Shown: piece by piece, positions 41,307 to 51,308 of the stretch
Layout: the number at the start of each line of letters is the position of its first letter
Numbering within the stretch: the stretch's first letter is position 1
Assembly (NCBI GenBank): GCA_040384485.1
Contig: JAZKJH010000002.1
Location: 150,235-214,234, forward strand
DNA from: Patescibacteria group bacterium
Lineage (GTDB): Bacteria > Patescibacteriota > Minisyncoccia > Phycocordibacterales > DATDWN01
Length of the DNA: 64,000 nt
Direction: 5' to 3'
Program-made: the position numbers and the translations under genes
Notes under the pieces: generated by a model
The model's input: only the letters and a program-made list of their open reading frames with translations
Database searches by the model: none
Told to the model about the DNA's origin: nothing

Positions 41307-41948
41307 ATGGCAGATGTGGTAACTAAGTTAGTGACTGATGAGGGGTCGCTCTATACCCTTTTCGACACTGTATGCGACCAATTTACGAGTCCCGCCCTCC
41401 CAATCCGGGATTTGGCGATCAAACTTCGTGAGAATGCTTCCATGAGCGAATGGATGCAGTGGGCACAAAACACTGAACACGTCTTCGACTTGAGACGTGT
41501 TACGATTCGGAAGAGGTTAAGTTACCTGACTGAGCTTAAGTCTGGTAGATCGCTCACTGACCCACAAGCTATCGAATTATACGAGTTATACCGATTTCTT
41601 CACGGCACGGTGGCGCCTCATCAGTACGAGTACCCAGAAATTGGGCGACAAGTGATCGAGAGATGGTTGACCGAGATGGACATGAGATCCAGATATCCCG
41701 AAGGATGGGATTGCTTGGATATCCTAAACGACAGAGTCGTCTATTGCACACTCCACAACCCTTGGGCTCGGAAACAATATCCAAATACCACAGAATTTTC
41801 GTTCACGCCGACCCCGGAGGAAAACAAACTCACTGGTCTATATGTGAGCCGGTTGGCAACGCTTGGACAGATTGCAGGAGTCAAGAGACTGAAACCTGCA
41901 GAAATCATTCAGAAGTTTCTTGGGAAGCAGCGAGTTACAAACTTGTGA
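41307..41948 (+). CDS. hypothetical protein (high GC) immediately downstream of the tRNA cluster
   Basis: 213 aa; GGAG RBS; near-consensus promoter TTGACAaaatctaaatattatgTATAGT about 40 nt upstream; no domain recognised. Confidence 0.5.
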   Translation: MADVVTKLVTDEGSLYTLFDTVCDQFTSPALPIRDLAIKLRENASMSEWMQWAQNTEHVFDLRRVTIRKRLSYLTELKSGRSLTDPQAIELYELYRFLHGTVAPHQYEYPEIGRQVIERWLTEMDMRSRYPEGWDCLDILNDRVVYCTLHNPWARKQYPNTTEFSFTPTPEENKLTGLYVSRLATLGQIAGVKRLKPAEIIQKFLGKQRVTNL

Positions 41949-42008
41949 GTTCCCGAAACTACCTACCCACTCACTACCAGAAATGGCTAGTGAGTGTTTT
42001 TTTTATTC

Positions 42009-44392: not shown

Positions 44393-45043
44393 CTACGCGA
44401 AGCAGGTAACCTTCTTCGCGCCTGAAGACAAGTGATCATGAATGCGCGAATCGATCGCATCCAAAATATCTTTGTGAATGACATCGGGCTTTCTGGTTCC
44501 TGAAAGTGGCAAACAGAATTCCGGACATTCTGAGTACAAAACCCGGTTGAGCTCAATCAAGCTCTTGCGATACTTGGACAAACGAGCTACTAGCACTGCG
44601 CGCTTGTCATCGTCTCGAACATGCCCATGTTCATCCGTTCTTGGACCACGACTATCGTAGCGATCCAAACACATGACATCCGGTACATCAAGGAAAATAA
44701 AAAATGGCAACCTGCCATGATTCTTAAATTCGTTGATTGCGAAGTACGCTTGTGTTGCTGTTCGTGGGAAACCCACAATAGCCACATTCCGTACTGCGTG
44801 CAGCACCTTCAATTCCTCACCCACTAGAGTGCAGGCTCGTTCGTCAGTGAAGTAGTTACCCACTGACATAAGCGCCTGTTCCGCCGGATTTGAATTCCTG
44901 TTGGCAAGCTCTGAAGTACTGATTTTCTTGTAATCCAGCGCCTCCAACATATCCGCCTGTGTATCCTTGCCCCCATATGGCGGCGCGATAATAACCACCG
45001 CTCTCGACTCTGTAAACACAATAACCTCCAATGAACTGTCCAA
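44393..45043 (-). CDS. adenylate-kinase-family P-loop kinase with degenerate P-loop (high GC)
   Basis: 216 aa; VVIIAPPYGGKDTQADML...ISTSEL aligns to Adk ILLGAPGAGKGTQA...ISTGDM; the Adk signature GFPRTATQA is present; the glycine-rich loop is partly replaced (PPYGGKD). Confidence 0.65.
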   Translation of the reverse strand: MDSSLEVIVFTESRAVVIIAPPYGGKDTQADMLEALDYKKISTSELANRNSNPAEQALMSVGNYFTDERACTLVGEELKVLHAVRNVAIVGFPRTATQAYFAINEFKNHGRLPFFIFLDVPDVMCLDRYDSRGPRTDEHGHVRDDDKRAVLVARLSKYRKSLIELNRVLYSECPEFCLPLSGTRKPDVIHKDILDAIDSRIHDHLSSGAKKVTCFA

Positions 45044-45078: not shown

Positions 45079-46308
45079 TTATTTTGGAAGTACTCCTCTA
45101 AGCTTCTTGTGAAAACTTATTGCGTATCTGTGCGCCTCAGCATTTGAAAGCAATATTTCCCTCTCACATTTCAACCACTTTTTGTCCCCCAATATTTCAC
45201 GTGCCCTATGTCTTTCATCCTTTACAACTGAGACCACCGGTATCTCTACCCCATTCTGTAAAAGTATCTTAGTCACAGTATTCTTTTGAGCAATCCCACC
45301 GTCGACTACTATCAGATTCGGATATAACCATTCTGTATGAGCCAGTCTCCTTTCCACAACCTCTTTTAGAGCGGCTGTATCATTTACCCCAGGATTGTTT
45401 CTTATTTTAAATTTTCTATAATCTGACTTCTTCACCTCACCATCCTCAACCACAGTCATTACACCAACGACATTCTGTCCCGACATATGAGCGATATCAT
45501 AACTTTCAATTCTAAACATATTACCAACTGATTTAGGCAGATCCTCTTTGATAAGTGATATGTCCTGAATATGATTCAATGTAAAAATTGTTCTTTTTAT
45601 TTTTTCGGCTTTTTCAAACTCCCGAGCTTTAGCAAAAGCTTTCATTTGCTTTTCCAAATTCTTTATCAGCTTTTTCTTGTTTCCTTCAAAAAAGGTTTTT
45701 ATATTTTCTATGGTTTCCGCGTATTCCTCTGCACTAACCACACCCGCACAAACCCCAGGACAAAGCCCTATTTGATAATTAAAACATCCTCGTTTCTGAC
45801 CAGGCGCGCACTTGTCTCTATATGGAAACATTTTACGGACTATCTTCATTGCTTCCTTGAGCTGACTTCCGTTAGGAAATGGTCCAAACGAATACTCAAC
45901 CTCAAATTTATTCTCCTTTAGAAAATGTGAGTTAAGTAGTTCTCGTCCACGAATAACCAAGACTCTTGGAAACTCTTCTTTGGTAATAACTACAAAGTTA
46001 AAACTTTTATTATCTTTTTCTTTGATGTTTGCCTCCGGTTGATGCTTTTTTATTAGGTGGGCTTCTAGAACGAGTGCCTCTAGTACTGAGTCAGTCGAAA
46101 TGTGTTCGATGTGATCAAAGCAAGTGAGCATTTTTAAAACGAGAGGACTTCTACTACTTACTACATCTGCATTAAAATAACTCCTTACTCGGTCCTTAAG
46201 ATTGGTAGCCTTACCAATATATAAAATATCTTTTTTGCACATAAACAAGTACACCCCAGGGGTACTTGGTAGTTTCGCTATTTCTTTTTTTATATCTTGA
46301 CTTAACAC
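45079..46308 (-). CDS. uvrC: UvrC-like GIY-YIG nuclease, short form (409 aa)
   Basis: N-terminal GIY-YIG (GVYLFMCKKDILYIGKATNLKDRVRSYF), UvrC Cys motif, RNase-H-like endonuclease region; lacks the C-terminal (HhH)2 tail of full-length UvrC. Confidence 0.65.
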   Translation of the reverse strand: MLSQDIKKEIAKLPSTPGVYLFMCKKDILYIGKATNLKDRVRSYFNADVVSSRSPLVLKMLTCFDHIEHISTDSVLEALVLEAHLIKKHQPEANIKEKDNKSFNFVVITKEEFPRVLVIRGRELLNSHFLKENKFEVEYSFGPFPNGSQLKEAMKIVRKMFPYRDKCAPGQKRGCFNYQIGLCPGVCAGVVSAEEYAETIENIKTFFEGNKKKLIKNLEKQMKAFAKAREFEKAEKIKRTIFTLNHIQDISLIKEDLPKSVGNMFRIESYDIAHMSGQNVVGVMTVVEDGEVKKSDYRKFKIRNNPGVNDTAALKEVVERRLAHTEWLYPNLIVVDGGIAQKNTVTKILLQNGVEIPVVSVVKDERHRAREILGDKKWLKCEREILLSNAEAHRYAISFHKKLRGVLPK

Positions 46309-46359
46309 ATATTTAAGTGTACTGTATTTTTTAGGAAAATCAACTTTTTGGAGGACTCA

Positions 46360-46659
46360 ATGCACATGATTTCGTTATCACAGCGCACAATCGAGATTCA
46401 TCATCTTGCCGTCGCTCTTCGGGAGGGATGGGACAGCCGTCAGGTTTTTATTGATCCAGACGTCTACGACGAATCACGACTTCATATTCCAGGTTGGAAT
46501 ACCTTGAATCCAGGTTGGCTTACTGCCTTAAAAAGGTTGTCTGAGTTGATGGATATCCCTCTATCCTTCGCCGATGAGATTGAAAAGTCCACAGCACGAC
46601 CCCGATATGTTCTACGACTTCTGCAAGAAGCAGAAGGATTTCTCAAAATTGCGCAGTAG
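46360..46659 (+). CDS. hypothetical protein (99 aa) - first gene of the high-GC small-gene cluster
   Basis: Start MHMISLSQ (GGAGG 5 nt upstream); no domain recognised. Confidence 0.45.
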   Translation: MHMISLSQRTIEIHHLAVALREGWDSRQVFIDPDVYDESRLHIPGWNTLNPGWLTALKRLSELMDIPLSFADEIEKSTARPRYVLRLLQEAEGFLKIAQ

Positions 46660-46676
46660 CTCCGAGCTACCAACAA

Positions 46677-46702
46677 ACACCCAGAACACCGGGTGTTTTT
46701 TA
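46677..46702 (+). terminator. intrinsic terminator
   Basis: acacccagaacaccgggtgt tttttt. Confidence 0.55.
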
Positions 46703-46704
46703 TT

Positions 46705-46735
46705 ACTTGACTTTTCAAAATTTTATTATAATCTG
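46705..46735 (+). promoter_or_regulatory. promoter-like element of module 1 (TTGACT ... TATAAT, short spacer)
   Basis: cTTGACTtttcaaaattttatTATAATctg; the -10 is perfect; -35 spacing is only 14 nt, so the true -35 may be the weaker TTACTT. Confidence 0.35.
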
Positions 46736-46752
46736 ATCTTGGGAGGCAGTTT

Positions 46753-46926
46753 ATGTCACAATTCGCTCGTCTGATGGTTATTGGGGGCGCAATACTCGGC
46801 TATCTAACAATCAAGCAGTTTCCTCAAGATGCGGTTCCAGCAATTTTTCTTTTTTCAGCAGTGATCCTGGAAATTATTGGTAACCAGATTTGCGAAGCAA
46901 TTCGTGCTAACAAAAAGGAAGCCTGA
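46753..46926 (+). CDS. 2-TM mini-protein, paralog A (57 aa; not in ORF track)
   Basis: MSQFARLMVIGGAILGYLTIKQFPQDAVPAIFLFSAVILEIIGNQICEAIRANKKEA; GGGAGG 6 nt upstream; C-terminal motif I-x-EAIRxxKK is shared with paralogs B and D. Confidence 0.45.
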   Translation: MSQFARLMVIGGAILGYLTIKQFPQDAVPAIFLFSAVILEIIGNQICEAIRANKKEA

Positions 46927-47090
46927 TGGACAGCAGGCGATGGAATGCTTTGTGGCTTCTTTGGTTGATTGTGACCTACATCATTTGGGGCTATAACTAC
47001 CAATGGCGAATGATGCTCGCGTCTGCCATCATCGGGTGGATCGTTCTCGATCTAGTGGACTGCGTCATCGAAGCAATCAAGAAAAAATAG
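46926..47090 (+). CDS. 2-TM mini-protein, paralog B (54 aa; not in ORF track)
   Basis: MDSRRWNALWLLWLIVTYIIWGYNYQWRMMLASAIIGWIVLDLVDCVIEAIKKK; ATGA start/stop overlap with paralog A (translational coupling); AAGGAAG RBS. Confidence 0.45.
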   Translation: MDSRRWNALWLLWLIVTYIIWGYNYQWRMMLASAIIGWIVLDLVDCVIEAIKKK

Positions 47091-47100
47091 TAGTTTGACA

Positions 47101-47129
47101 CCGCGCTCGGGGAAACCTGGGCGCTTTTT
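47101..47129 (+). terminator. intrinsic terminator carrying a conserved motif (caccgcgctcgggga...)
   Basis: ccgcgctcggggaaacctgggcgc ttttt; the same 17-nt motif recurs in the terminator at 47763. Confidence 0.5.
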
Positions 47130-47135
47130 ATTACC

Positions 47136-47170
47136 TTGACTTATTTATAATAATATGTTAATATTAGGAA
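47136..47170 (+). promoter_or_regulatory. promoter-like element of module 2
   Basis: cTTGACTtatttataataatatgtTAATATtagg (TTGACT-17-TAATAT). Confidence 0.35.
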
Positions 47171-47190
47171 AGGAAACAAAAGGAGCACCC

Positions 47191-47562
47191 ATGATTTTTG
47201 GTAACGGTAAGTCTGAGCGGGTCCAGCCCTCCGTGCGTGAGGAAATTCGACAGATGCATCAGGCAGACGACGAGGACCTGTTCGATCAGCTCCTCCTCGA
47301 CTACCGCGATGAACGCTACGCCATCCCCAATAGTGCCAGGTATTCTCACTACTTCGACCTTGAGGACGACTTCGATCCTTCGCCAACTACGCGACCGGAT
47401 GTCATCGACCTCGAAGATTCGGACTACGATTACCAGGACTACTCGGATCGCGGACCCTTTCATTTCATGAGGAACGGAGTTACTGACGAGCGGTCAGAGA
47501 GCGACCTCGAGGATGACTTCAAATTTGAGCTGATGCTGCGACGATCATCACCGCTAGACTAA
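47191..47562 (+). CDS. highly acidic protein (123 aa, about 33 Asp/Glu; DNA-mimic-like composition)
   Basis: Start at ATG 47191 with AAAAGGAG upstream (the ORF-track start at 47155 has no RBS); sequence rich in DLEDDFD / DSDYDYQDYSD runs. Confidence 0.5.
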   Translation: MIFGNGKSERVQPSVREEIRQMHQADDEDLFDQLLLDYRDERYAIPNSARYSHYFDLEDDFDPSPTTRPDVIDLEDSDYDYQDYSDRGPFHFMRNGVTDERSESDLEDDFKFELMLRRSSPLD

Positions 47563-47575
47563 CAAGGAGATATGC

Positions 47576-47749
47576 GTGTCAGGAGAACGATGGTACGTTA
47601 TGTGGGCTCTTTGGGTCATTGCATGCTACCTCATATGGGGTGGTAGGACAGGGACCGGACAGCCACAAATCATGTTTGCCGTGATCATATTCGGCGTGGT
47701 AGCCGGTATCGCGCTCGATGGCCTAATCAAGGCAATCAAGAGTAAATGA
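47576..47749 (+). CDS. 2-TM mini-protein, paralog D (57 aa, GTG start; not in ORF track)
   Basis: VSGERWYVMWALWVIACYLIWGGRTGTGQPQIMFAVIIFGVVAGIALDGLIKAIKSK; AAGGAG 6 nt before the GTG; aligns along its whole length with paralog B (RW..W.LW.I..Y.IWG...AIK.K). Confidence 0.4.
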   Translation: MSGERWYVMWALWVIACYLIWGGRTGTGQPQIMFAVIIFGVVAGIALDGLIKAIKSK

Positions 47750-47762
47750 CTTTTCAACACCG

Positions 47763-47795
47763 CGCTCGGGGAATTCCTCCCCGAGCGTTTTTTTT
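47763..47795 (+). terminator. intrinsic terminator carrying a conserved motif
   Basis: cgctcgggga attcct ccccgagcg tttttttt; perfect 10-bp stem. Confidence 0.65.
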
Positions 47796-47876
47796 AACTC
47801 TGTCGTAAAAATATATTTTATCATCTAAGTAGACTTTTAATACTGTTTGTGAGATTGTTTTACAGGGAGAACACTG

Positions 47877-48116
47877 ATGATAAAAGTGATCATAACGTAC
47901 CATTCAGATTCAGGAGAACTGATTAAGCCTCCAGACCACTATCCCGCTGTGATTGATTTTCAGTTGAATAATGCATGCGAAGTGACGGATGACAAAGTCA
48001 AGGACATGGTAGAATCTTTTCTAAGATCTGTACACGACGAAGTTCTACCAAATGGAATTGAAATCGGCTGGGGGTTTTCCGACTCTATAACACCTCTAGT
48101 GGATCACAAAAAATAA
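47877..48116 (+). CDS. hypothetical small protein (79 aa)
   Basis: MIKVIITYHSDSGELIKPPDHYP...; GGGAGA RBS; the N-terminus loosely resembles the HicB-like mini-protein at 22356-22511. Confidence 0.45.
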   Translation: MIKVIITYHSDSGELIKPPDHYPAVIDFQLNNACEVTDDKVKDMVESFLRSVHDEVLPNGIEIGWGFSDSITPLVDHKK

Positions 48117-48131
48117 TGACATACCAATAAT

Positions 48132-48175
48132 GCGTTCGTGGAGTTCCTCCCTCGAACGCATTTTTATTATCCATC
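48132..48175 (+). terminator. intrinsic terminator
   Basis: gcgttcgtggag ttcct ccctcgaacgc attttt. Confidence 0.55.
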
Positions 48176-48332
48176 TTCTTCGCTTAAAAGTAACTGCTTG
48201 TAATTGAAAAAGGCCTTTCGTCGGAGAGTCACTTCGGTCTGATGACCTCTAGTATTTCCTCGCCTTCTCTCGTCAATCGCAGCCGACCACGGCTAGATAG
48301 ATTGCCTTTTGAGATTATATGCTGTTATTTAT

Positions 48333-50966
48333 TTATCCCTTCCTATACGCTTTGTATTGTTTCAAAGCCTTCTTCAAATACTTCCCTGTATAACTTTTTT
48401 CGTTATTTGCTATCTCCTCTGGAGTTCCTTTGGCTACAAGCTGTCCACCACCTTCCCCACCTTCAGGACCAATATCTAGAACATAGTCACTAGATTTTAT
48501 AATATCCATATTGTGCTCAATAACTAAAACAGAGTTACCCTTGTTTACTAGTTGCTGGAGAATCTCAATAAGTTTTTTTACATCCTCGTAGTGTAATCCG
48601 ATAGTTGGTTCGTCTAGAATATACATAGTTTTTTGCAAATGCGCTCTGTATAGTTCAGAAGATATTTTTACACGCTGAGCTTCACCACCAGAAAGAGTTG
48701 TCGCAGACTGACCGAGCTCTAGATATCCAAGCCCCACGTCATTAAGGGTTTTTAGTCGGTCATAAATAGCTGGAATATCAATAAAGAAATCTAACGCCTC
48801 CTCAACCGTCATTTTCAAAACTTCGTATATATTTTTCTTTTTATAATTCACCTCCAGAGTCTCTTTCATAAACCTTTTCCCCTTACATACATCACAGGGT
48901 ACGTACACAGTAGGCAAAAAGTGCATTTCTACTTCTATCATTCCATTACCCTGACAAGTCTCACATCGTCCACCTTTTACGTTAAAAGAAAATCTGTTAG
49001 CTTTCCATCCTCGTGCACGAGCTTCAGATGTTTCTGCAAACAAGTCACGGATAAAACTCCAAGCCCCAGTATATGTAGCAGGGTTTGAACGCGGAGTTCT
49101 GCCGATAGGACTCTGGTCTATTAGTATTGCTCGGCCCAAATACTCTGAACCAGCAAAAGTCTTACAATTAAATATTTCTGCTGTTCGATATCTTTTTTCT
49201 AGTCTTGCTTGCAGGTTCTTATACAAAATCTCATAAACAAAAGATGATTTACCTGAACCAGATACTCCCGTCACCGAAACAAACCTACCGAGTGGAATAT
49301 CCACATTCATATTTTTTATATTGAAAACTTTTCCTCCGCGAATTTGAATATCACCTTTTGGATGGTCGCGTCTTTCCGCTGGAACTTCCAGAACTTTGTC
49401 CCCTCGCAAATAGTCTAGTGTGTTTGAACCGCTCACATTTTTCTTGGCAGTCAAAAGCTCGTTCAAATCCCCCGCCACAACAACATTACCACCGTGTATA
49501 CCCGCACCAGGGCCTATGTCTACTATATAGTCCGATGCATATATAGTGTCCTCGTCATGCTCTACCACGATAATAGTATTGCCGAGGTCACGTAAATCCA
49601 GGAGAGTTTGGATCAATCTGTCATTGTCTCTCGAGTGTAGTCCAATAGTAGGCTCATCAAGCACATACAAAGCTCCTACAAGCCCTGAACCAAGCTGTGA
49701 AGCAAGACGAATTCTCTGTGCCTCTCCACCAGAAAGAGTGTGAGCTCGTCTGTTTAGCGACAAATACTCGATACCCACGTTGAGCATGAACAAAAGTCTC
49801 GATTCTATTTCTCGCAAAACTACTTTAGAAATATTTTTCTCTCGCTCAGACATTTTCAATCCTTCAAAAAATGCATAAGCATCTTTGATAGACATGTCAG
49901 TCAGATCTACTATGTTTTTCTTGCCTATCATCACGTGCAAAGCCTCCTCTCGAAGCCTTGCTCCTTTACACTTTGGACAAACTTCTTTTCCAAAAAAATG
50001 TTTTGTTCCTAGTCCGTTACATTCTGGACAGGCACCGTATGGAGAGTTAAAAGAAAATAGTCTTGGCTCTACTTCTGGATATGAGTAACCGTCCTTTGGA
50101 CAAGAAAGTTTTGACGACATGAAAAACTCTTCTGGTTTGTAGTCTTTTACTTTTTCTTGCGCCATGTCTCGGAACATTATTTTTACCTGACCATCAGACT
50201 CGTTTAGAGCTTTTTCCAAATCCTCTGCTAGTCGCTCCTCAGCACTTTTTTTATCGTTTTTAAAATCAAGAAGCGAAATACTGTCTACCAGTACATCTAT
50301 AGTGTGTCTCTTTGTCTTGGAAAGTTCGATTCTATCTCGGAGTGATTTTCTTTCGCCATCTATCATTATTGTTGAGTAACCTTTGCCCAGGAGGTCGTAC
50401 AACATCTGGTAGTACTCTCCCTTTCTACCTTTTACCACTGGAGAAAATATTTCTACGTATACAGGTAGTGGAATTTTTACATCTACTTTTTTAGATTTGG
50501 TGTACTCACTAATTTTTTCAAGAATAAAGTTTTTTATTTCCTCGTTTGAAAGTTTTGTTATTTCGTCGCCACAAACAAGACAATGTGGGTGCCCAACTCG
50601 AGAATACAGTATACGCAAATAGTCGTATATCTCGGTGATAGTCGCCACAGTTGAACGAGGGTTGTTAGACCTAGATTTTTGGTCTATAGAAATAGCTGGT
50701 GAAAGTCCGACTATTTCATCCACATCAGGCTTTTGAAGTTGTCTTAGAAATTGTCTTGCGTACGAAGAAAGGGATTCTATGTATCGGCGTTGTCCTTCGG
50801 CAAAAATAGTATCAAAAGCCAGGGATGATTTCCCTGAACCAGAAAGTCCAGTAAAAACCACCATCTTGTTTCGTGGCATTTCTACTGTGATGTTTTTCAA
50901 GTTGTGGGTGCGGGCACCCTTCACAATAATTACATCATTATTTTTTTGTTCTTTTTTAGGTGACAT
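48333..50966 (-). CDS. uvrA: excinuclease ABC subunit A
   Basis: 877 aa; two ABC ATPase modules ([12 protein letters not shown] and [10 protein letters not shown]) with zinc-finger inserts. Confidence 0.95.
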
Positions 50967-51068
50967 GTACGCAAATAAACCCCTGAATCTCCCTATGGGT
51001 TAAGTATGAGCATATCATAAACTCCCTATAAAAAACAGACTCGTTACAAATGCAACGAGTCTGAGAAT

Positions 51069-51308
51069 TTACTTGTTCTTGCGAAAGAAAAACCACAGAA
51101 CAAAAGGGGTGCCGACCACCAAAACGATTAGAGCTTGTTTTGGTGTTTTAATGAACAACCCGGCTAAATCGCTCAAAATAGACACCGTACCTATTTCACC
51201 TTTGCAGAACTTGCGAGGTTGAGGCCCATAAGGACCGTTGCGATAGTCATAACTGAGAGTAGCCCAATGTACAAATGTGTTGGGTTCATTTGAGTCTCCG
51301 CTCAACAT
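51069..51308 (-). CDS. hypothetical small membrane protein (weak)
   Basis: 79 aa; C-terminal TM ALIVLVVGTPFVLWFFF. Confidence 0.3.
   Translation of the reverse strand: MLSGDSNEPNTFVHWATLSYDYRNGPYGPQPRKFCKGEIGTVSILSDLAGLFIKTPKQALIVLVVGTPFVLWFFFRKNK

What the first reader, a model, noticed from the sequence alone, without database searches (positions are those of the whole stretch)
46340..48180. Modular cluster of six small genes: three paralogous 2-TM mini-proteins, one highly acidic protein, duplicated promoter-pair-terminator modules
This 1.8-kb high-GC islet sits between the backbone genes uvrC-like and uvrA. It carries six tightly packed plus-strand genes of 54-123 aa. Four of them fall below the 60-aa cutoff or are mis-started in the ORF track. 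Three (46753-46926, 46926-47090, 47576-47749) are clear paralogs: 2-TM peptides sharing an N-terminal RW..W.LW.I..Y.IWG block and a C-terminal [IV]..EAI[KR]..K tail. They are arranged as two repeated modules, each laid out as promoter-like element, upstream gene, paralog, terminator. In module 1 the upstream gene is paralog A and its stop overlaps the start of paralog B (ATGA). In module 2 the upstream gene is a 123-aa protein with about 27% Asp/Glu (an Ocr/ArdA-like DNA-mimic composition), followed by paralog D with a GTG start. The two module terminators share a conserved 17-nt motif (caccgcgctcgggga), which suggests the whole module was duplicated. Co-expressed small TM peptides with divergent partners resemble toxin/immunity, holin-like, or phage-derived anti-defence cassettes. 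I recognise no described family.
Basis: seen in the sequence. Interest (0 to 1): 0.8.

Follow-up and report, generated by a model that had tools for sequence, protein, structure and literature searches.

The report
Variable small-gene cassette islet, uvrA–uvrC gap
Between two DNA-repair genes of an uncultured ultra-small (Patescibacteria) bacterium sit four self-contained mini-operons encoding six tiny orphan proteins, mostly membrane peptides; related genomes carry a different assortment at the same spot, so it is a fast-changing accessory hotspot whose function is unknown.

Summary
The six plus-strand genes are real. Each has a Shine-Dalgarno site, the compared families give dN/dS below 0.4, and four stable hairpin/U-tract terminators split them into four units: g1 | gA-gB | g4-gD | g6.

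Only gB and gD are demonstrable paralogs (39% identity, E=3e-11). gA shares just the size, the 2-TM layout and a C-terminal D-x-[IVL]-[CI]-x-A-I-[KR] tail. The duplicated piece is "TM-mini gene + terminator" (about 210 bp), not a whole module.

None of the six proteins matches Pfam, PHROGs, NCBIfam, PADLOC, phage or plasmid records; g1 and g4 also have no PDB sequence match. The acidic g4 is a compositionally disordered orphan with no Ocr/ArdA homology.

The host is a Zambryskibacteria-like Patescibacteria MAG. Nearly every relative with UvrC at least 61% identical carries 1-5 small opposite-strand genes in this gap. These include g6-like, g1-like, acidic+TM-mini and TM-mini cassettes in different orders. 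In ten other genomes cassettes end in one hairpin family, GGCGCCGA-loop-TCGGCGCC.

Best reading: a clade-specific, recombining, moron-like cassette islet encoding small inner-membrane proteins and partners. Function is inferred only (envelope/conflict role). Toxin-antitoxin, integron, holin and DNA-mimic memberships fail tests.

The parts
46297..46330 (+). Promoter-like site for g1 (TTGACT at 46297-46302, weak -10). It overlaps the first codons of the divergent uvrC gene.
   Evidence: Repeat family D2, promoter scan, sequence read. This is a consensus match only.
46360..46659 (+). g1: 99-aa soluble protein, predicted four-helix bundle. It belongs to an orphan family.
46675..46704 (+). Terminator T1 (8-bp stem plus U-tract) after g1.
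   Evidence: -11 kcal/mol, z -3.65.
46707..46734 (+). Promoter-like site P2 (TTGACT, 16 nt, TAATCT) for the gA-gB unit.
   Evidence: Sequence; repeats D2/D4; alignment with cassette promoters of relatives.
46753..46926 (+). gA: 57-aa 2-TM mini-protein of the 'A-type', with C-terminal ..NQICEAIRANKKEA.
   Evidence: Hydropathy. Its C-terminal motif and size are shared with L012 (two copies), L015 and L017 minis. It is not significantly similar to gB or gD.
46926..47090 (+). gB: 54-aa Trp-rich 2-TM mini-protein, translationally coupled to gA (ATGA). Paralog of gD.
   Evidence: E=3e-11; dN/dS 0.32.
47103..47130 (+). Terminator T2. Its left arm and 5' flank form the conserved 17-mer ACACCGCGCTCGGGGAA (47098-47114).
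   Evidence: -17.9 kcal/mol, z -4.6.
47136..47164 (+). Promoter-like site P3 (TTGACT, 17 nt, TAATAT with TG extension) for the g4-gD unit. By my count it is about 76% identical to the promoter of the acidic+TM cassette of L012.
   Evidence: L012 sequence.
47191..47562 (+). g4: 123-aa acidic protein (27% D+E, net -19, 15 aromatics, 7 Pro), probably disordered, and an orphan.
   Evidence: The only database hit is itself. There is no Pfam or PDB hit. The best weak match is the syntenic 70-aa acidic ORF of L012, E=0.054. NCBI annotates it as a hypothetical protein, MES3004756.1.
47576..47749 (+). gD: 57-aa Trp-rich 2-TM mini-protein with a GTG start. Paralog of gB.
47762..47796 (+). Terminator T3 (11-bp perfect stem plus U8). 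It carries the same 17-mer as T2 (47757-47773).
   Evidence: -22.4 kcal/mol, z -6.6.
47877..48116 (+). g6: 79-aa soluble alpha/beta protein, a member of a 12-protein family. In every member whose context was examined, the gene lies in the uvrC-uvrA gap.
48129..48168 (+). Terminator T4 after g6; 76% identical to the T3 region over 37 nt.
   Evidence: D1, I1; -18.7 kcal/mol, z -6.1.

Best explanation
SHOWN
The stretch is the local, unusually large version (2.0 kb, six genes) of a variable islet that occupies the uvrA-uvrC junction in one clade of Patescibacteria (Parcubacteria, Zambryskibacteria-like). It consists of four insulated expression units on the strand opposite the uvr genes. Each unit has a strong Shine-Dalgarno site, one or two small ORFs and a GC-rich hairpin/U-tract terminator; three of the four also have a sigma-70-like promoter site (none was found for g6).

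The products are:
- a four-helix-bundle protein (g1);
- a coupled pair of 2-TM mini-proteins (gA-gB);
- an acidic, probably disordered protein followed by a 2-TM mini-protein (g4-gD);
- a small alpha/beta protein (g6).

The islet changes by cassette gain and loss, reordering, tandem duplication (gB+terminator gave gD+terminator, or the reverse) and recombination between genomes.

INFERRED
The TM minis are helical hairpins in the cytoplasmic membrane with both ends in the cytoplasm. They present a conserved basic tail, D-x-[IVL]-[CI]-x-A-I-[KR]. The variable upstream partner (the acidic protein or another mini) acts with them.

The units behave like prophage 'morons': add-on genes with their own promoter and terminator and foreign base composition, here in a chromosome. 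My best guess is that they give an accessory envelope or conflict function, for example membrane-level exclusion of phage or foreign DNA or toxins, as HK97 gp15 does. I do not think they are a poison/antidote pair. The functional part is a low-confidence inference; I put it at about 0.25 on its own. The overall confidence of 0.55 refers to the architectural and evolutionary description (a variable, moron-like cassette islet of real small genes), which taken alone I would put near 0.85.
For: REAL CODING GENES
- Six of six genes have an SD site, against 4 of 49 large window ORFs at their first start (a crude count).
- pN is below pS in all seven family comparisons, with dN/dS 0.10-0.36.

UNITS
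- Four stable terminators.
- TTGACT-16/17-TAnnnT sites that align with cassette promoters of relatives.

ADD-ON DNA
- In 59 related loci that hold both genes (of 70 fetched), the uvrA-uvrC gap ranges from -15 to about 2470 bp. In the window it is 2025 bp. Islet DNA is absent from all of them.
- GC3 is 0.55-0.67 for gB, g4 and gD against 0.33 for the uvr genes.

CLADE-WIDE LOCUS
- Nearly every relative with UvrC at least 61% identical has 1-5 SD-led small opposite-strand ORFs in the gap. They are mostly 1-2-TM minis or g6-like.
- L012 has g6-like | g1-like | acidic+TM-mini | TM-mini, with the same promoter/SD/terminator layout.
- L074/L075 have g6-like | g1-like | g1-like.

RECOMBINATION AND MOBILITY
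- Between L012 and L013 the g1-like cassette is 97% identical in DNA. The flanks are 91% (uvrA) and 80% (uvrC). The adjacent g6-like gene has no DNA similarity.
- A g1 homolog sits alone between grpE and a Clp_N gene in another genome.

MORON ANALOGY
- The definition (own promoter and terminator, deviant GC, extra DNA) and the description of gp15 as a small inner-membrane exclusion protein are taken from PMC3594210.

AGAINST A POISON/ANTIDOTE PAIR
- TM minis occur alone in L017 and in the last cassette of L012.
Against: - There is no experimental or transcript evidence.
- Promoters are consensus matches only, and such matches are not enriched in the region.
- No promoter was found for g6.
- The islet is not in a prophage. 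No phage genome carries any of the families, so the exclusion function is pure analogy.
- gA, g1 and g6 have near-host GC3, so not every unit looks foreign.
- Raised GC in g4 and the minis is partly an amino-acid-composition effect (GC1 0.64 in g4).
- Homology of g4 and g6 with their L012/L013 counterparts rests on weak scores (E 0.02-0.07 among 9372 ORFs) plus synteny and, for g6, a profile search.
- Membrane topology is inferred from hydropathy and charge only.
Confidence: 0.55

Rival explanations
1. These are addiction or toxin-antitoxin cassettes. The 2-TM mini-protein is a membrane-damaging toxin, comparable to GhoT or to type I toxins. It is neutralised by the upstream protein (g4, gA) or by an unseen antisense RNA. 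Tandem spread reflects selfish behaviour.
For: - The proteins are small, hydrophobic, 54-57 aa, with small-xxx-small motifs and basic C-termini (sequences).
- They are tandemly duplicated in an intergenic region.
- The second gene uses a GTG start (gD) or is translationally coupled (gB), which could keep it sub-stoichiometric.
- A 17-nt 3'-UTR element is perfectly conserved while the coding sequence is saturated. It could be an RNA-pairing site.
- The distribution is mosaic and mobile-looking.
Against: - Minis occur as stand-alone cassettes with a strong promoter and SD in L017 and L012.
- The upstream partner is not conserved in kind: an acidic protein, another TM protein, or nothing.
- There is no hit to any toxin or antitoxin model in Pfam, NCBIfam or PADLOC.
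- No antisense promoter lies opposite the 3' ends.
- The 5' UTRs are short and show no obvious SD-sequestering structure.
Confidence: 0.15
2. This is a new hairpin-mediated cassette system. The conserved 3' hairpin is both the terminator and the site or homology patch by which promoter-gene-hairpin cassettes are inserted, duplicated and moved between intergenic sites and genomes. It would be an integron-like logic without attC or IntI.
For: - GGCGCCGA-loop-TCGGCGCC ends cassettes carrying unrelated genes (g6-like, g1-like, A-type minis, other TM ORFs) in L007, L012-L015, L017, L045, L073 and L074/75. In about 1 Mb of these loci it is found only in the gap, apart from one site in a high-GC outgroup.
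- The same hairpin follows the g1 homolog at a different locus (grpE-Clp_N) in L077.
- Two L012 terminators behind unrelated genes are identical over 24 nt.
- In the window, the left arm is 17/17 conserved between T2 and T3 although the genes are saturated at synonymous sites.
Against: - In single-cassette genomes (L007, L017, L045) the hairpin lies 9-22 nt after the uvrA stop. It may simply be an old bidirectional terminator that was copied by tandem duplication.
- The window uses a different hairpin sequence.
- No recombinase or transposase lies within 10 kb.
- The generic palindrome is common in high-GC phages, so it is not specific outside this clade.
- Only one off-site example was found.
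Confidence: 0.15
3. This is a phage-derived anti-defence cassette, with g4 as an Ocr/ArdA-type DNA mimic.
For: g4 is 27% Asp+Glu with pI 4.2. The GC3 of g4 and gD looks foreign.
Against: - There is no match to the Ocr or ArdA profiles or to any PDB sequence.
- A charge-hydropathy estimate puts g4 and its L012 counterpart on the disordered side. They are rich in Pro and aromatics, unlike compact mimics.
- No homolog was found in phage records, in viral contigs fetched with a hairpin pattern, or in PHROGs.
- The locus is chromosomal and flanked by housekeeping genes.
- It is always co-encoded with a membrane mini-protein.
Confidence: 0.05
4. This is a bacteriocin/immunity or holin-like lysis module.
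For: The peptides are small, Trp-rich and hydrophobic with basic tails, and one pair is coupled.
Against: - There is no double-glycine leader context.
- No C39 peptidase, ABC exporter, endolysin or phage gene was identified among the large ORFs scanned within about 10 kb.
- The peptides are far more hydrophobic than secreted leaderless bacteriocins (GRAVY 0.6-0.8).
- There are no holin or bacteriocin profile hits.
Confidence: 0.05
5. The ORFs are spurious, or the region is a non-coding or regulatory spacer.
For: Three ORFs are under 60 aa. A public gene call skipped gB and gD.
Against: Six of six have an SD site. dN/dS is below 0.4. Families are conserved across genomes, and gB/gD are paralogs.
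Confidence: 0.02

Closest known systems
Prophage morons (e.g. the HK97 gene 15 moron, which encodes a small inner-membrane superinfection-exclusion protein)
   Same: The DNA is extra relative to related genomes. Each unit has its own terminator, and three of the four have a promoter-like site. Part of the islet has deviant GC. Products are small and include inner-membrane proteins. The definition comes from PMC3594210.
   Different: It is not in a phage or prophage. The flanks are uvrA and uvrC, and no phage genes lie within 10 kb. Several units are arrayed at one conserved chromosomal site across a whole clade. There is no sequence relation to any phage protein.
Integron gene-cassette arrays / CALINs
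   Same: An array of small, mostly orphan ORFs in one orientation. Each cassette ends in a conserved inverted repeat. Cassette content and order differ between relatives.
   Different: There are no attC core sites (RYYYAAC/GTTRRRY). The hairpins are 22-34 nt terminators rather than the roughly 57-141-bp attC (attC sizes from my own knowledge). Three of the four cassettes carry their own promoter-like site. No IntI was found nearby.
Tandemly repeated small-membrane-toxin loci (type I toxin-antitoxin such as ldr, ibs/sib, zor-orz; type V ghoST). This comparison is from my own knowledge.
   Same: Small hydrophobic proteins are duplicated in tandem in an intergenic region. GhoT is also 57 aa with two TM segments and follows its partner gene.
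   Different: There is no homology. The minis also occur alone. No antisense RNA gene was detected. SD sites are strong and leaders are short.
DNA-mimic anti-restriction proteins Ocr and ArdA
   Same: g4 has high negative charge.
   Different: There is no sequence match. The composition points to disorder. The gene is chromosomal and paired with a membrane peptide.

Membership tests
Prophage moron | Extra DNA compared with related genomes | tested here: met
   The gap is 2025 bp, against 214-433 bp in the closest relatives and -15 to 50 bp in many deeper ones. Islet DNA is absent from all 70 loci.
Prophage moron | Base composition differs from the surrounding genes | tested here: met
   GC3 is 0.55-0.67 (gB, g4, gD) against 0.33 (uvrA, uvrC). 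For g1, gA and g6 it is only 0.36-0.43.
Prophage moron | Own promoter and terminator | tested here: inconclusive
   The four terminators are strongly supported. Promoters are consensus matches only and none was found for g6. No transcript data were available.
Prophage moron | Resides in a phage or prophage genome | tested here: not met
   The flanks are uvrC, adk-like, ddl, uvrA, uvrB and tgt. No phage or integrase domains were found within about 10 kb. There was no phage DNA or protein match.
Integron cassette array / CALIN | attC sites with R''/R' cores (RYYYAAC ... GTTRRRY) at each cassette end | tested here: not met
   Neither core occurs in any of the five intergenic spacers. The hairpins are 22-34 nt.
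Integron cassette array / CALIN | IntI integrase with an attI site adjacent (complete integrons) | tested here: not met
   No recombinase was found among the ORFs within about 10 kb.
Ocr / ArdA DNA mimics | Sequence or profile membership (Pfam Ocr, ArdA) or similarity to solved mimics | tested here: not met
   There are no Pfam families at E<=1 and no PDB sequence at E<=10.
Ocr / ArdA DNA mimics | Compact fold displaying a DNA-like array of carboxylates | tested here: inconclusive
   No structure model was made because the budget went to g6 and g1. Charge-hydropathy places g4 on the disordered side.
Toxin-antitoxin with a membrane toxin (type I / GhoT-like) | Homology to a known toxin or antitoxin family | tested here: not met
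   There are no hits in Pfam, NCBIfam, PADLOC or PHROGs.
Toxin-antitoxin with a membrane toxin (type I / GhoT-like) | The toxin is always accompanied by a cognate antitoxin gene (protein or antisense RNA) | tested here: not met
   Minis stand alone in L017 and in the last cassette of L012. No antisense promoter was found at the 3' ends. An undetected RNA cannot be excluded.
Toxin-antitoxin with a membrane toxin (type I / GhoT-like) | Toxicity on expression, relieved by the partner | not testable with these tools
   This needs an expression experiment.
Holin (class II) | Sits in a lysis cassette next to an endolysin, or matches a holin family | tested here: not met
   There are no lysis genes nearby and no holin profile hits.
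   For gB-gD it is met (E=3e-11). For gA it is not: E=0.22 or no alignment, and hhalign probability 4%. The shared C-terminal motif occurs 7 times in 761,881 ORF residues, and all 7 are these minis. The motif was defined post hoc. gB vs the L017 mini gives E=0.03.

The most novel reading that the evidence does not exclude
A clade of Patescibacteria maintains a non-integron gene-cassette system. Promoter-gene-hairpin cassettes encoding tiny membrane and partner proteins are inserted, duplicated, reordered and exchanged through their conserved 3' hairpin. In most members that hairpin is GGCGCCGA-loop-TCGGCGCC with a C-rich 5' flank; in this genome it is GCGCTCGGGGA. The uvrA-uvrC junction would be the main landing site and other intergenic sites (grpE-Clp_N) occasional ones. 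This would be a new way for minimal genomes to keep a fast-changing accessory repertoire.
Probability: 0.15. Interest if true: 0.85.

Novelty: new variant of a known kind. Interest (0 to 1): 0.5.

Why it matters
Patescibacteria have tiny genomes and, according to the abstract of PMC6509639 (seen), rarely encode CRISPR-Cas. How they cope with phages, and how they deal with their host cells, is largely unknown.

A conserved chromosomal site that swaps small, well-expressed membrane-protein cassettes between close relatives is a likely place for such conflict or interface functions. It also supplies at least four new small-protein families to test: g1-like, g6-like, A-type minis and B/D-type minis.

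Two of the genes (gB, gD) were skipped by the one public gene call examined, so similar loci may be under-counted. If the shared cassette hairpin proves to be the vehicle of cassette movement, it would be a new cassette mechanism. If not, the locus is still a clean natural example of moron-like units outside phages.

Tried and rejected
- Profile libraries (Pfam, PHROGs, NCBIfam, PADLOC) for all six proteins: nothing.
- Word-indexed search of 5.8 billion proteins. The gB+gD profile found nothing. g4 found only itself. The g6 family found 12 small proteins; those located sit beside uvrC.
- Exhaustive HMMER of g1 against 1.84 billion representatives: itself, one true homolog (P0016) and one spurious acidic repeat protein.
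- PDB sequence searches for g1 and g4: nothing.
- The afdb50 fold library was unavailable.
- Viral-contig scans for the g1 family and the gB/gD family: nothing. The g6 alignment was too divergent for that tool.
- A generic hairpin pattern in viral contigs gave 120+ hits, mostly in high-GC phage contigs (median GC 0.65). None encoded an islet family, so this was uninformative.
- Metagenome scans. The gB/gD family found nothing. The exact L012/L015 hairpin found only two contigs identical to the L015 islet.
- BLAST of the islet DNA, g4 and gB against phage records, and of the islet DNA against plasmid records: nothing.
- Integron idea rejected: no attC cores and no integrase.
- Joining gA to gB/gD by jackhmmer, a family HMM and hhalign failed.
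- Rfam: only two tRNAs in the window.
- Literature searches found no description of such a locus in Patescibacteria.

Full report
**1. What is in the sequence**

The region 46340-48180 lies between a short uvrC-like gene (45079-46308, minus strand, 409 aa; GIY-YIG, UVR and UvrC RNaseH domains) and uvrA (48333-50966, minus strand).

| Gene | Coordinates | Length | Note |
|---|---|---|---|
| g1 | 46360-46659 | 99 aa | |
| gA | 46753-46926 | 57 aa | |
| gB | 46926-47090 | 54 aa | start overlaps the gA stop (ATGA) |
| g4 | 47191-47562 | 123 aa | |
| gD | 47576-47749 | 57 aa | GTG start |
| g6 | 47877-48116 | 79 aa | |

Each has a GGAGG-type ribosome-binding site 5-8 nt upstream. By a crude count, only 4 of 49 large ORFs of the window have one at their first start codon.

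Four stable hairpins followed by U-tracts close g1, gA-gB, g4-gD and g6. Their energies are -11 to -22.4 kcal/mol, with z = -3.7 to -6.6 against shuffles. There are therefore four units, not two.

TTGACT-16/17-TAnnnT promoter-like sites precede g1, gA and g4. None was found for g6. Promoter-like hits as a class are not enriched in the region.

**2.

- *Paralogy.* gB and gD are true paralogs: 39% identity, E=3e-11. Synonymous sites are saturated and dN/dS is about 0.32.
- *gA.* It is not demonstrably related to them. BLASTP gives E=0.22 against gB and nothing against gD. hhalign aligns only the last 16 columns at 4% probability.
- *What the three share.* They share length, two hydrophobic segments and a C-terminal tail, D/N-x-[IVL]-[CI]-x-A-I-[KR]. 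A slightly looser regex for this tail, [DNQ]x[IVL][CI]x[AT]I[RKQ], occurs only seven times in 761,881 residues of ORFs from the window and 70 related loci. All seven are these mini-proteins. The motif was defined after the fact, so this is suggestive only.
- *The 17-mer.* ACACCGCGCTCGGGGAA is exact in both terminators and unique to them in the window.
- *Extent of duplication.* Homology between the "modules" covers only gB+terminator against gD+terminator (61% of 229 aligned columns) and an 18-nt U-tract/-35 junction. gA and g4 are unrelated. g6's terminator belongs to the same repeat family.
- *g4 composition.* It is 27% Asp+Glu, pI 4.2, net charge -19, and rich in aromatics and proline. A charge-hydropathy estimate puts it on the disordered side.

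**3. Homology**

None of the six proteins hits Pfam, PHROGs, NCBIfam or PADLOC.

- g4 has no relative among 5.8 billion proteins. NCBI annotates it as a hypothetical protein of a Patescibacteria MAG.
- The gB/gD profile finds nothing in proteins, viral contigs or metagenome contigs.
- g1 has one distant homolog in an exhaustive search.
- The g6 family has 12 members of 72-79 aa.
- Structure models are moderately confident but match nothing informative. g6 has pLDDT 78 with a beta-beta-alpha-beta order; g1 has pLDDT 75.6 and is a four-helix bundle.
- Phage and plasmid records have no match.

**4. Context in relatives**

UvrC relatives place the window in Patescibacteria, in Zambryskibacteria/Paceibacteria-like MAGs, with 76% identity at best. 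Those genomes keep the order uvrB-uvrA-uvrC.

- *Gap size.* In deeper relatives uvrA and uvrC abut or overlap. In the clade with UvrC at least 61% identical, the gap is 200-1600 bp, against 2025 bp here.
- *Gap content.* It almost always holds 1-5 SD-led small ORFs on the opposite strand. They are mostly 1-2-TM mini-proteins of 34-85 aa or g6-like proteins. Gap GC is often above the genome's.
- *L012.* It has a strikingly similar islet: g6-like | g1-like | acidic 70-aa + 54-aa 2-TM mini | 55-aa 2-TM mini. Each unit has a promoter-like site, an SD and a terminator. By my count its acidic+mini promoter is about 76% identical to the window's g4-gD promoter. The acidic protein is the best, though weak, match of g4 (E=0.054).
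- *Other islets.* L015 and L017 carry A-type minis with gA's tail. L074/L075 carry g6-like | g1-like | g1-like.
- *Order.* In every other examined genome that has one, the g6-like gene is next to uvrC (L008, L012-L014, L054, L073-L076). In the window it is last.

**5. Signs of turnover and movement**

- The closest relatives (UvrA 88-89% identical) share none of the window's cassettes.
- Between L012 and L013 the g1-like cassette is 97% identical in DNA. uvrA is 91% and uvrC 80% identical, and the adjacent g6-like gene has no DNA similarity.
- A g1 homolog (39% identity) sits alone on the opposite strand between grpE and a Clp_N gene in another MAG.
- In ten genomes, cassettes carrying unrelated genes end in one hairpin family, GGCGCCGA-loop-TCGGCGCC, in several cases with a C-rich 5' flank. 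In about 1 Mb of related loci that hairpin occurs only inside the gap. It also follows the off-site g1 homolog.
- In single-cassette genomes the hairpin lies 9-22 nt after the uvrA stop. It may therefore have begun as a shared bidirectional terminator.
- The window uses a different hairpin. It shows the same pattern of a terminator arm conserved better than the genes.

**6. Interpretation**

*Shown.* This is a clade-specific, variable, recombining islet of insulated small-gene units. The genes are real: they have SD sites, dN/dS of 0.10-0.36 and conserved families.

*Inferred.* The minis are cytoplasmic-membrane helical hairpins with a conserved basic cytoplasmic tail, working with variable partners.

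The units meet the descriptive criteria of prophage morons: extra DNA, own promoter and terminator, deviant GC (PMC3594210). They are not in a prophage, so I say they work like morons and do not file them as morons.

A conflict or envelope role such as membrane-level exclusion is my best guess, at about 0.25. The alternatives fare as follows:

- A poison/antidote reading is weakened by stand-alone minis and the lack of any toxin-antitoxin homology.
- Integron membership fails: there are no attC cores and no integrase.
- Holin and bacteriocin readings lack any supporting neighbours.
- The Ocr/ArdA idea rests on charge alone.

**7. Novelty and score**

The protein families match no described family, and I found no description of such a locus. 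The kind of thing, a hypervariable accessory islet of moron-like units, is known, so I rate it a new variant of a known kind.

Interest is moderate (0.5). The structure and comparative pattern are solid, and the hairpin association is intriguing, but function is untested. The most novel reading still open is hairpin-mediated cassette mobility. I give it a probability of about 0.15 and an interest of 0.85 if true.

Noticed in passing
window 48171-48332 (+): The 162-nt spacer between g6's terminator and the uvrA stop folds unusually well on the + strand (-44.4 kcal/mol, z -3.5, 0 of 200 shuffles as good). It does not on the - strand (z -0.5). There is no Rfam hit, and no similar DNA in the 70 related loci. 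It could be a small RNA, a 3' UTR element or a cassette remnant.
   Followed up: partly
window 41307-41948 (+): A 213-aa ORF with no Pfam hit lies on the strand opposite its neighbours. It has an AAGGAG ribosome-binding site, its own terminator near 41998 and GC3 0.53, against about 0.32 for the adjacent PLD-like gene. It sits next to two tRNA-Ala genes and may be another add-on unit.
   Followed up: partly
window 44393-45043 (-): The adenylate-kinase-like gene next to uvrC has a TTG start, GC3 0.52 (neighbours about 0.33) and only a modest ADK match (E=4e-9). It may be a divergent or acquired copy.
   Followed up: no
window, whole: Backbone genes rarely show a Shine-Dalgarno motif at their first start codon (4 of 49 large ORFs), while all six islet genes and the 213-aa ORF do. 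The count is crude because true starts are unknown.
   Followed up: partly
window 51069-51308 (-): A 79-aa ORF with a C-terminal hydrophobic segment fills the uvrB-uvrA gap on the same strand as the uvr genes, followed by a terminator near 51034. The uvrB-uvrA gap may also be a small-gene site.
   Followed up: no
L077 4998-5234 and 6001-6321 (GCA_040384425.1): Two opposite-strand single-gene units are inserted in a dnaK-grpE-Clp_N run: a 78-aa orphan between dnaK and grpE, and the g1 homolog between grpE and Clp_N. The g1 homolog ends in the GGGCGCCGA..TCGGCGCC hairpin. An AbiEii/DUF6922 pair lies about 5 kb away.
   Followed up: partly
L012 vs L013, 9284-9726: The g1-like cassette is 97% identical in DNA between two genomes whose uvrA is 91% and uvrC 80% identical. 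The neighbouring g6-like genes share only 40% protein identity. This is a sharp mosaic boundary.
   Followed up: yes
L002, L003, L009 (uvrA-uvrC gaps): A separate family-like set of single-TM minis of 42-54 aa ends in ..RGE or ..SGE. L054 and L010 carry longer minis ending ..KNGID and ..KDCIE. The gap therefore hosts several unrelated mini-protein types.
   Followed up: no
window 45079-46308 (-) and relatives: By tblastn extent, UvrC in this clade is only about 400-460 aa. No helix-hairpin-helix domain appeared among the Pfam hits.
   Followed up: no
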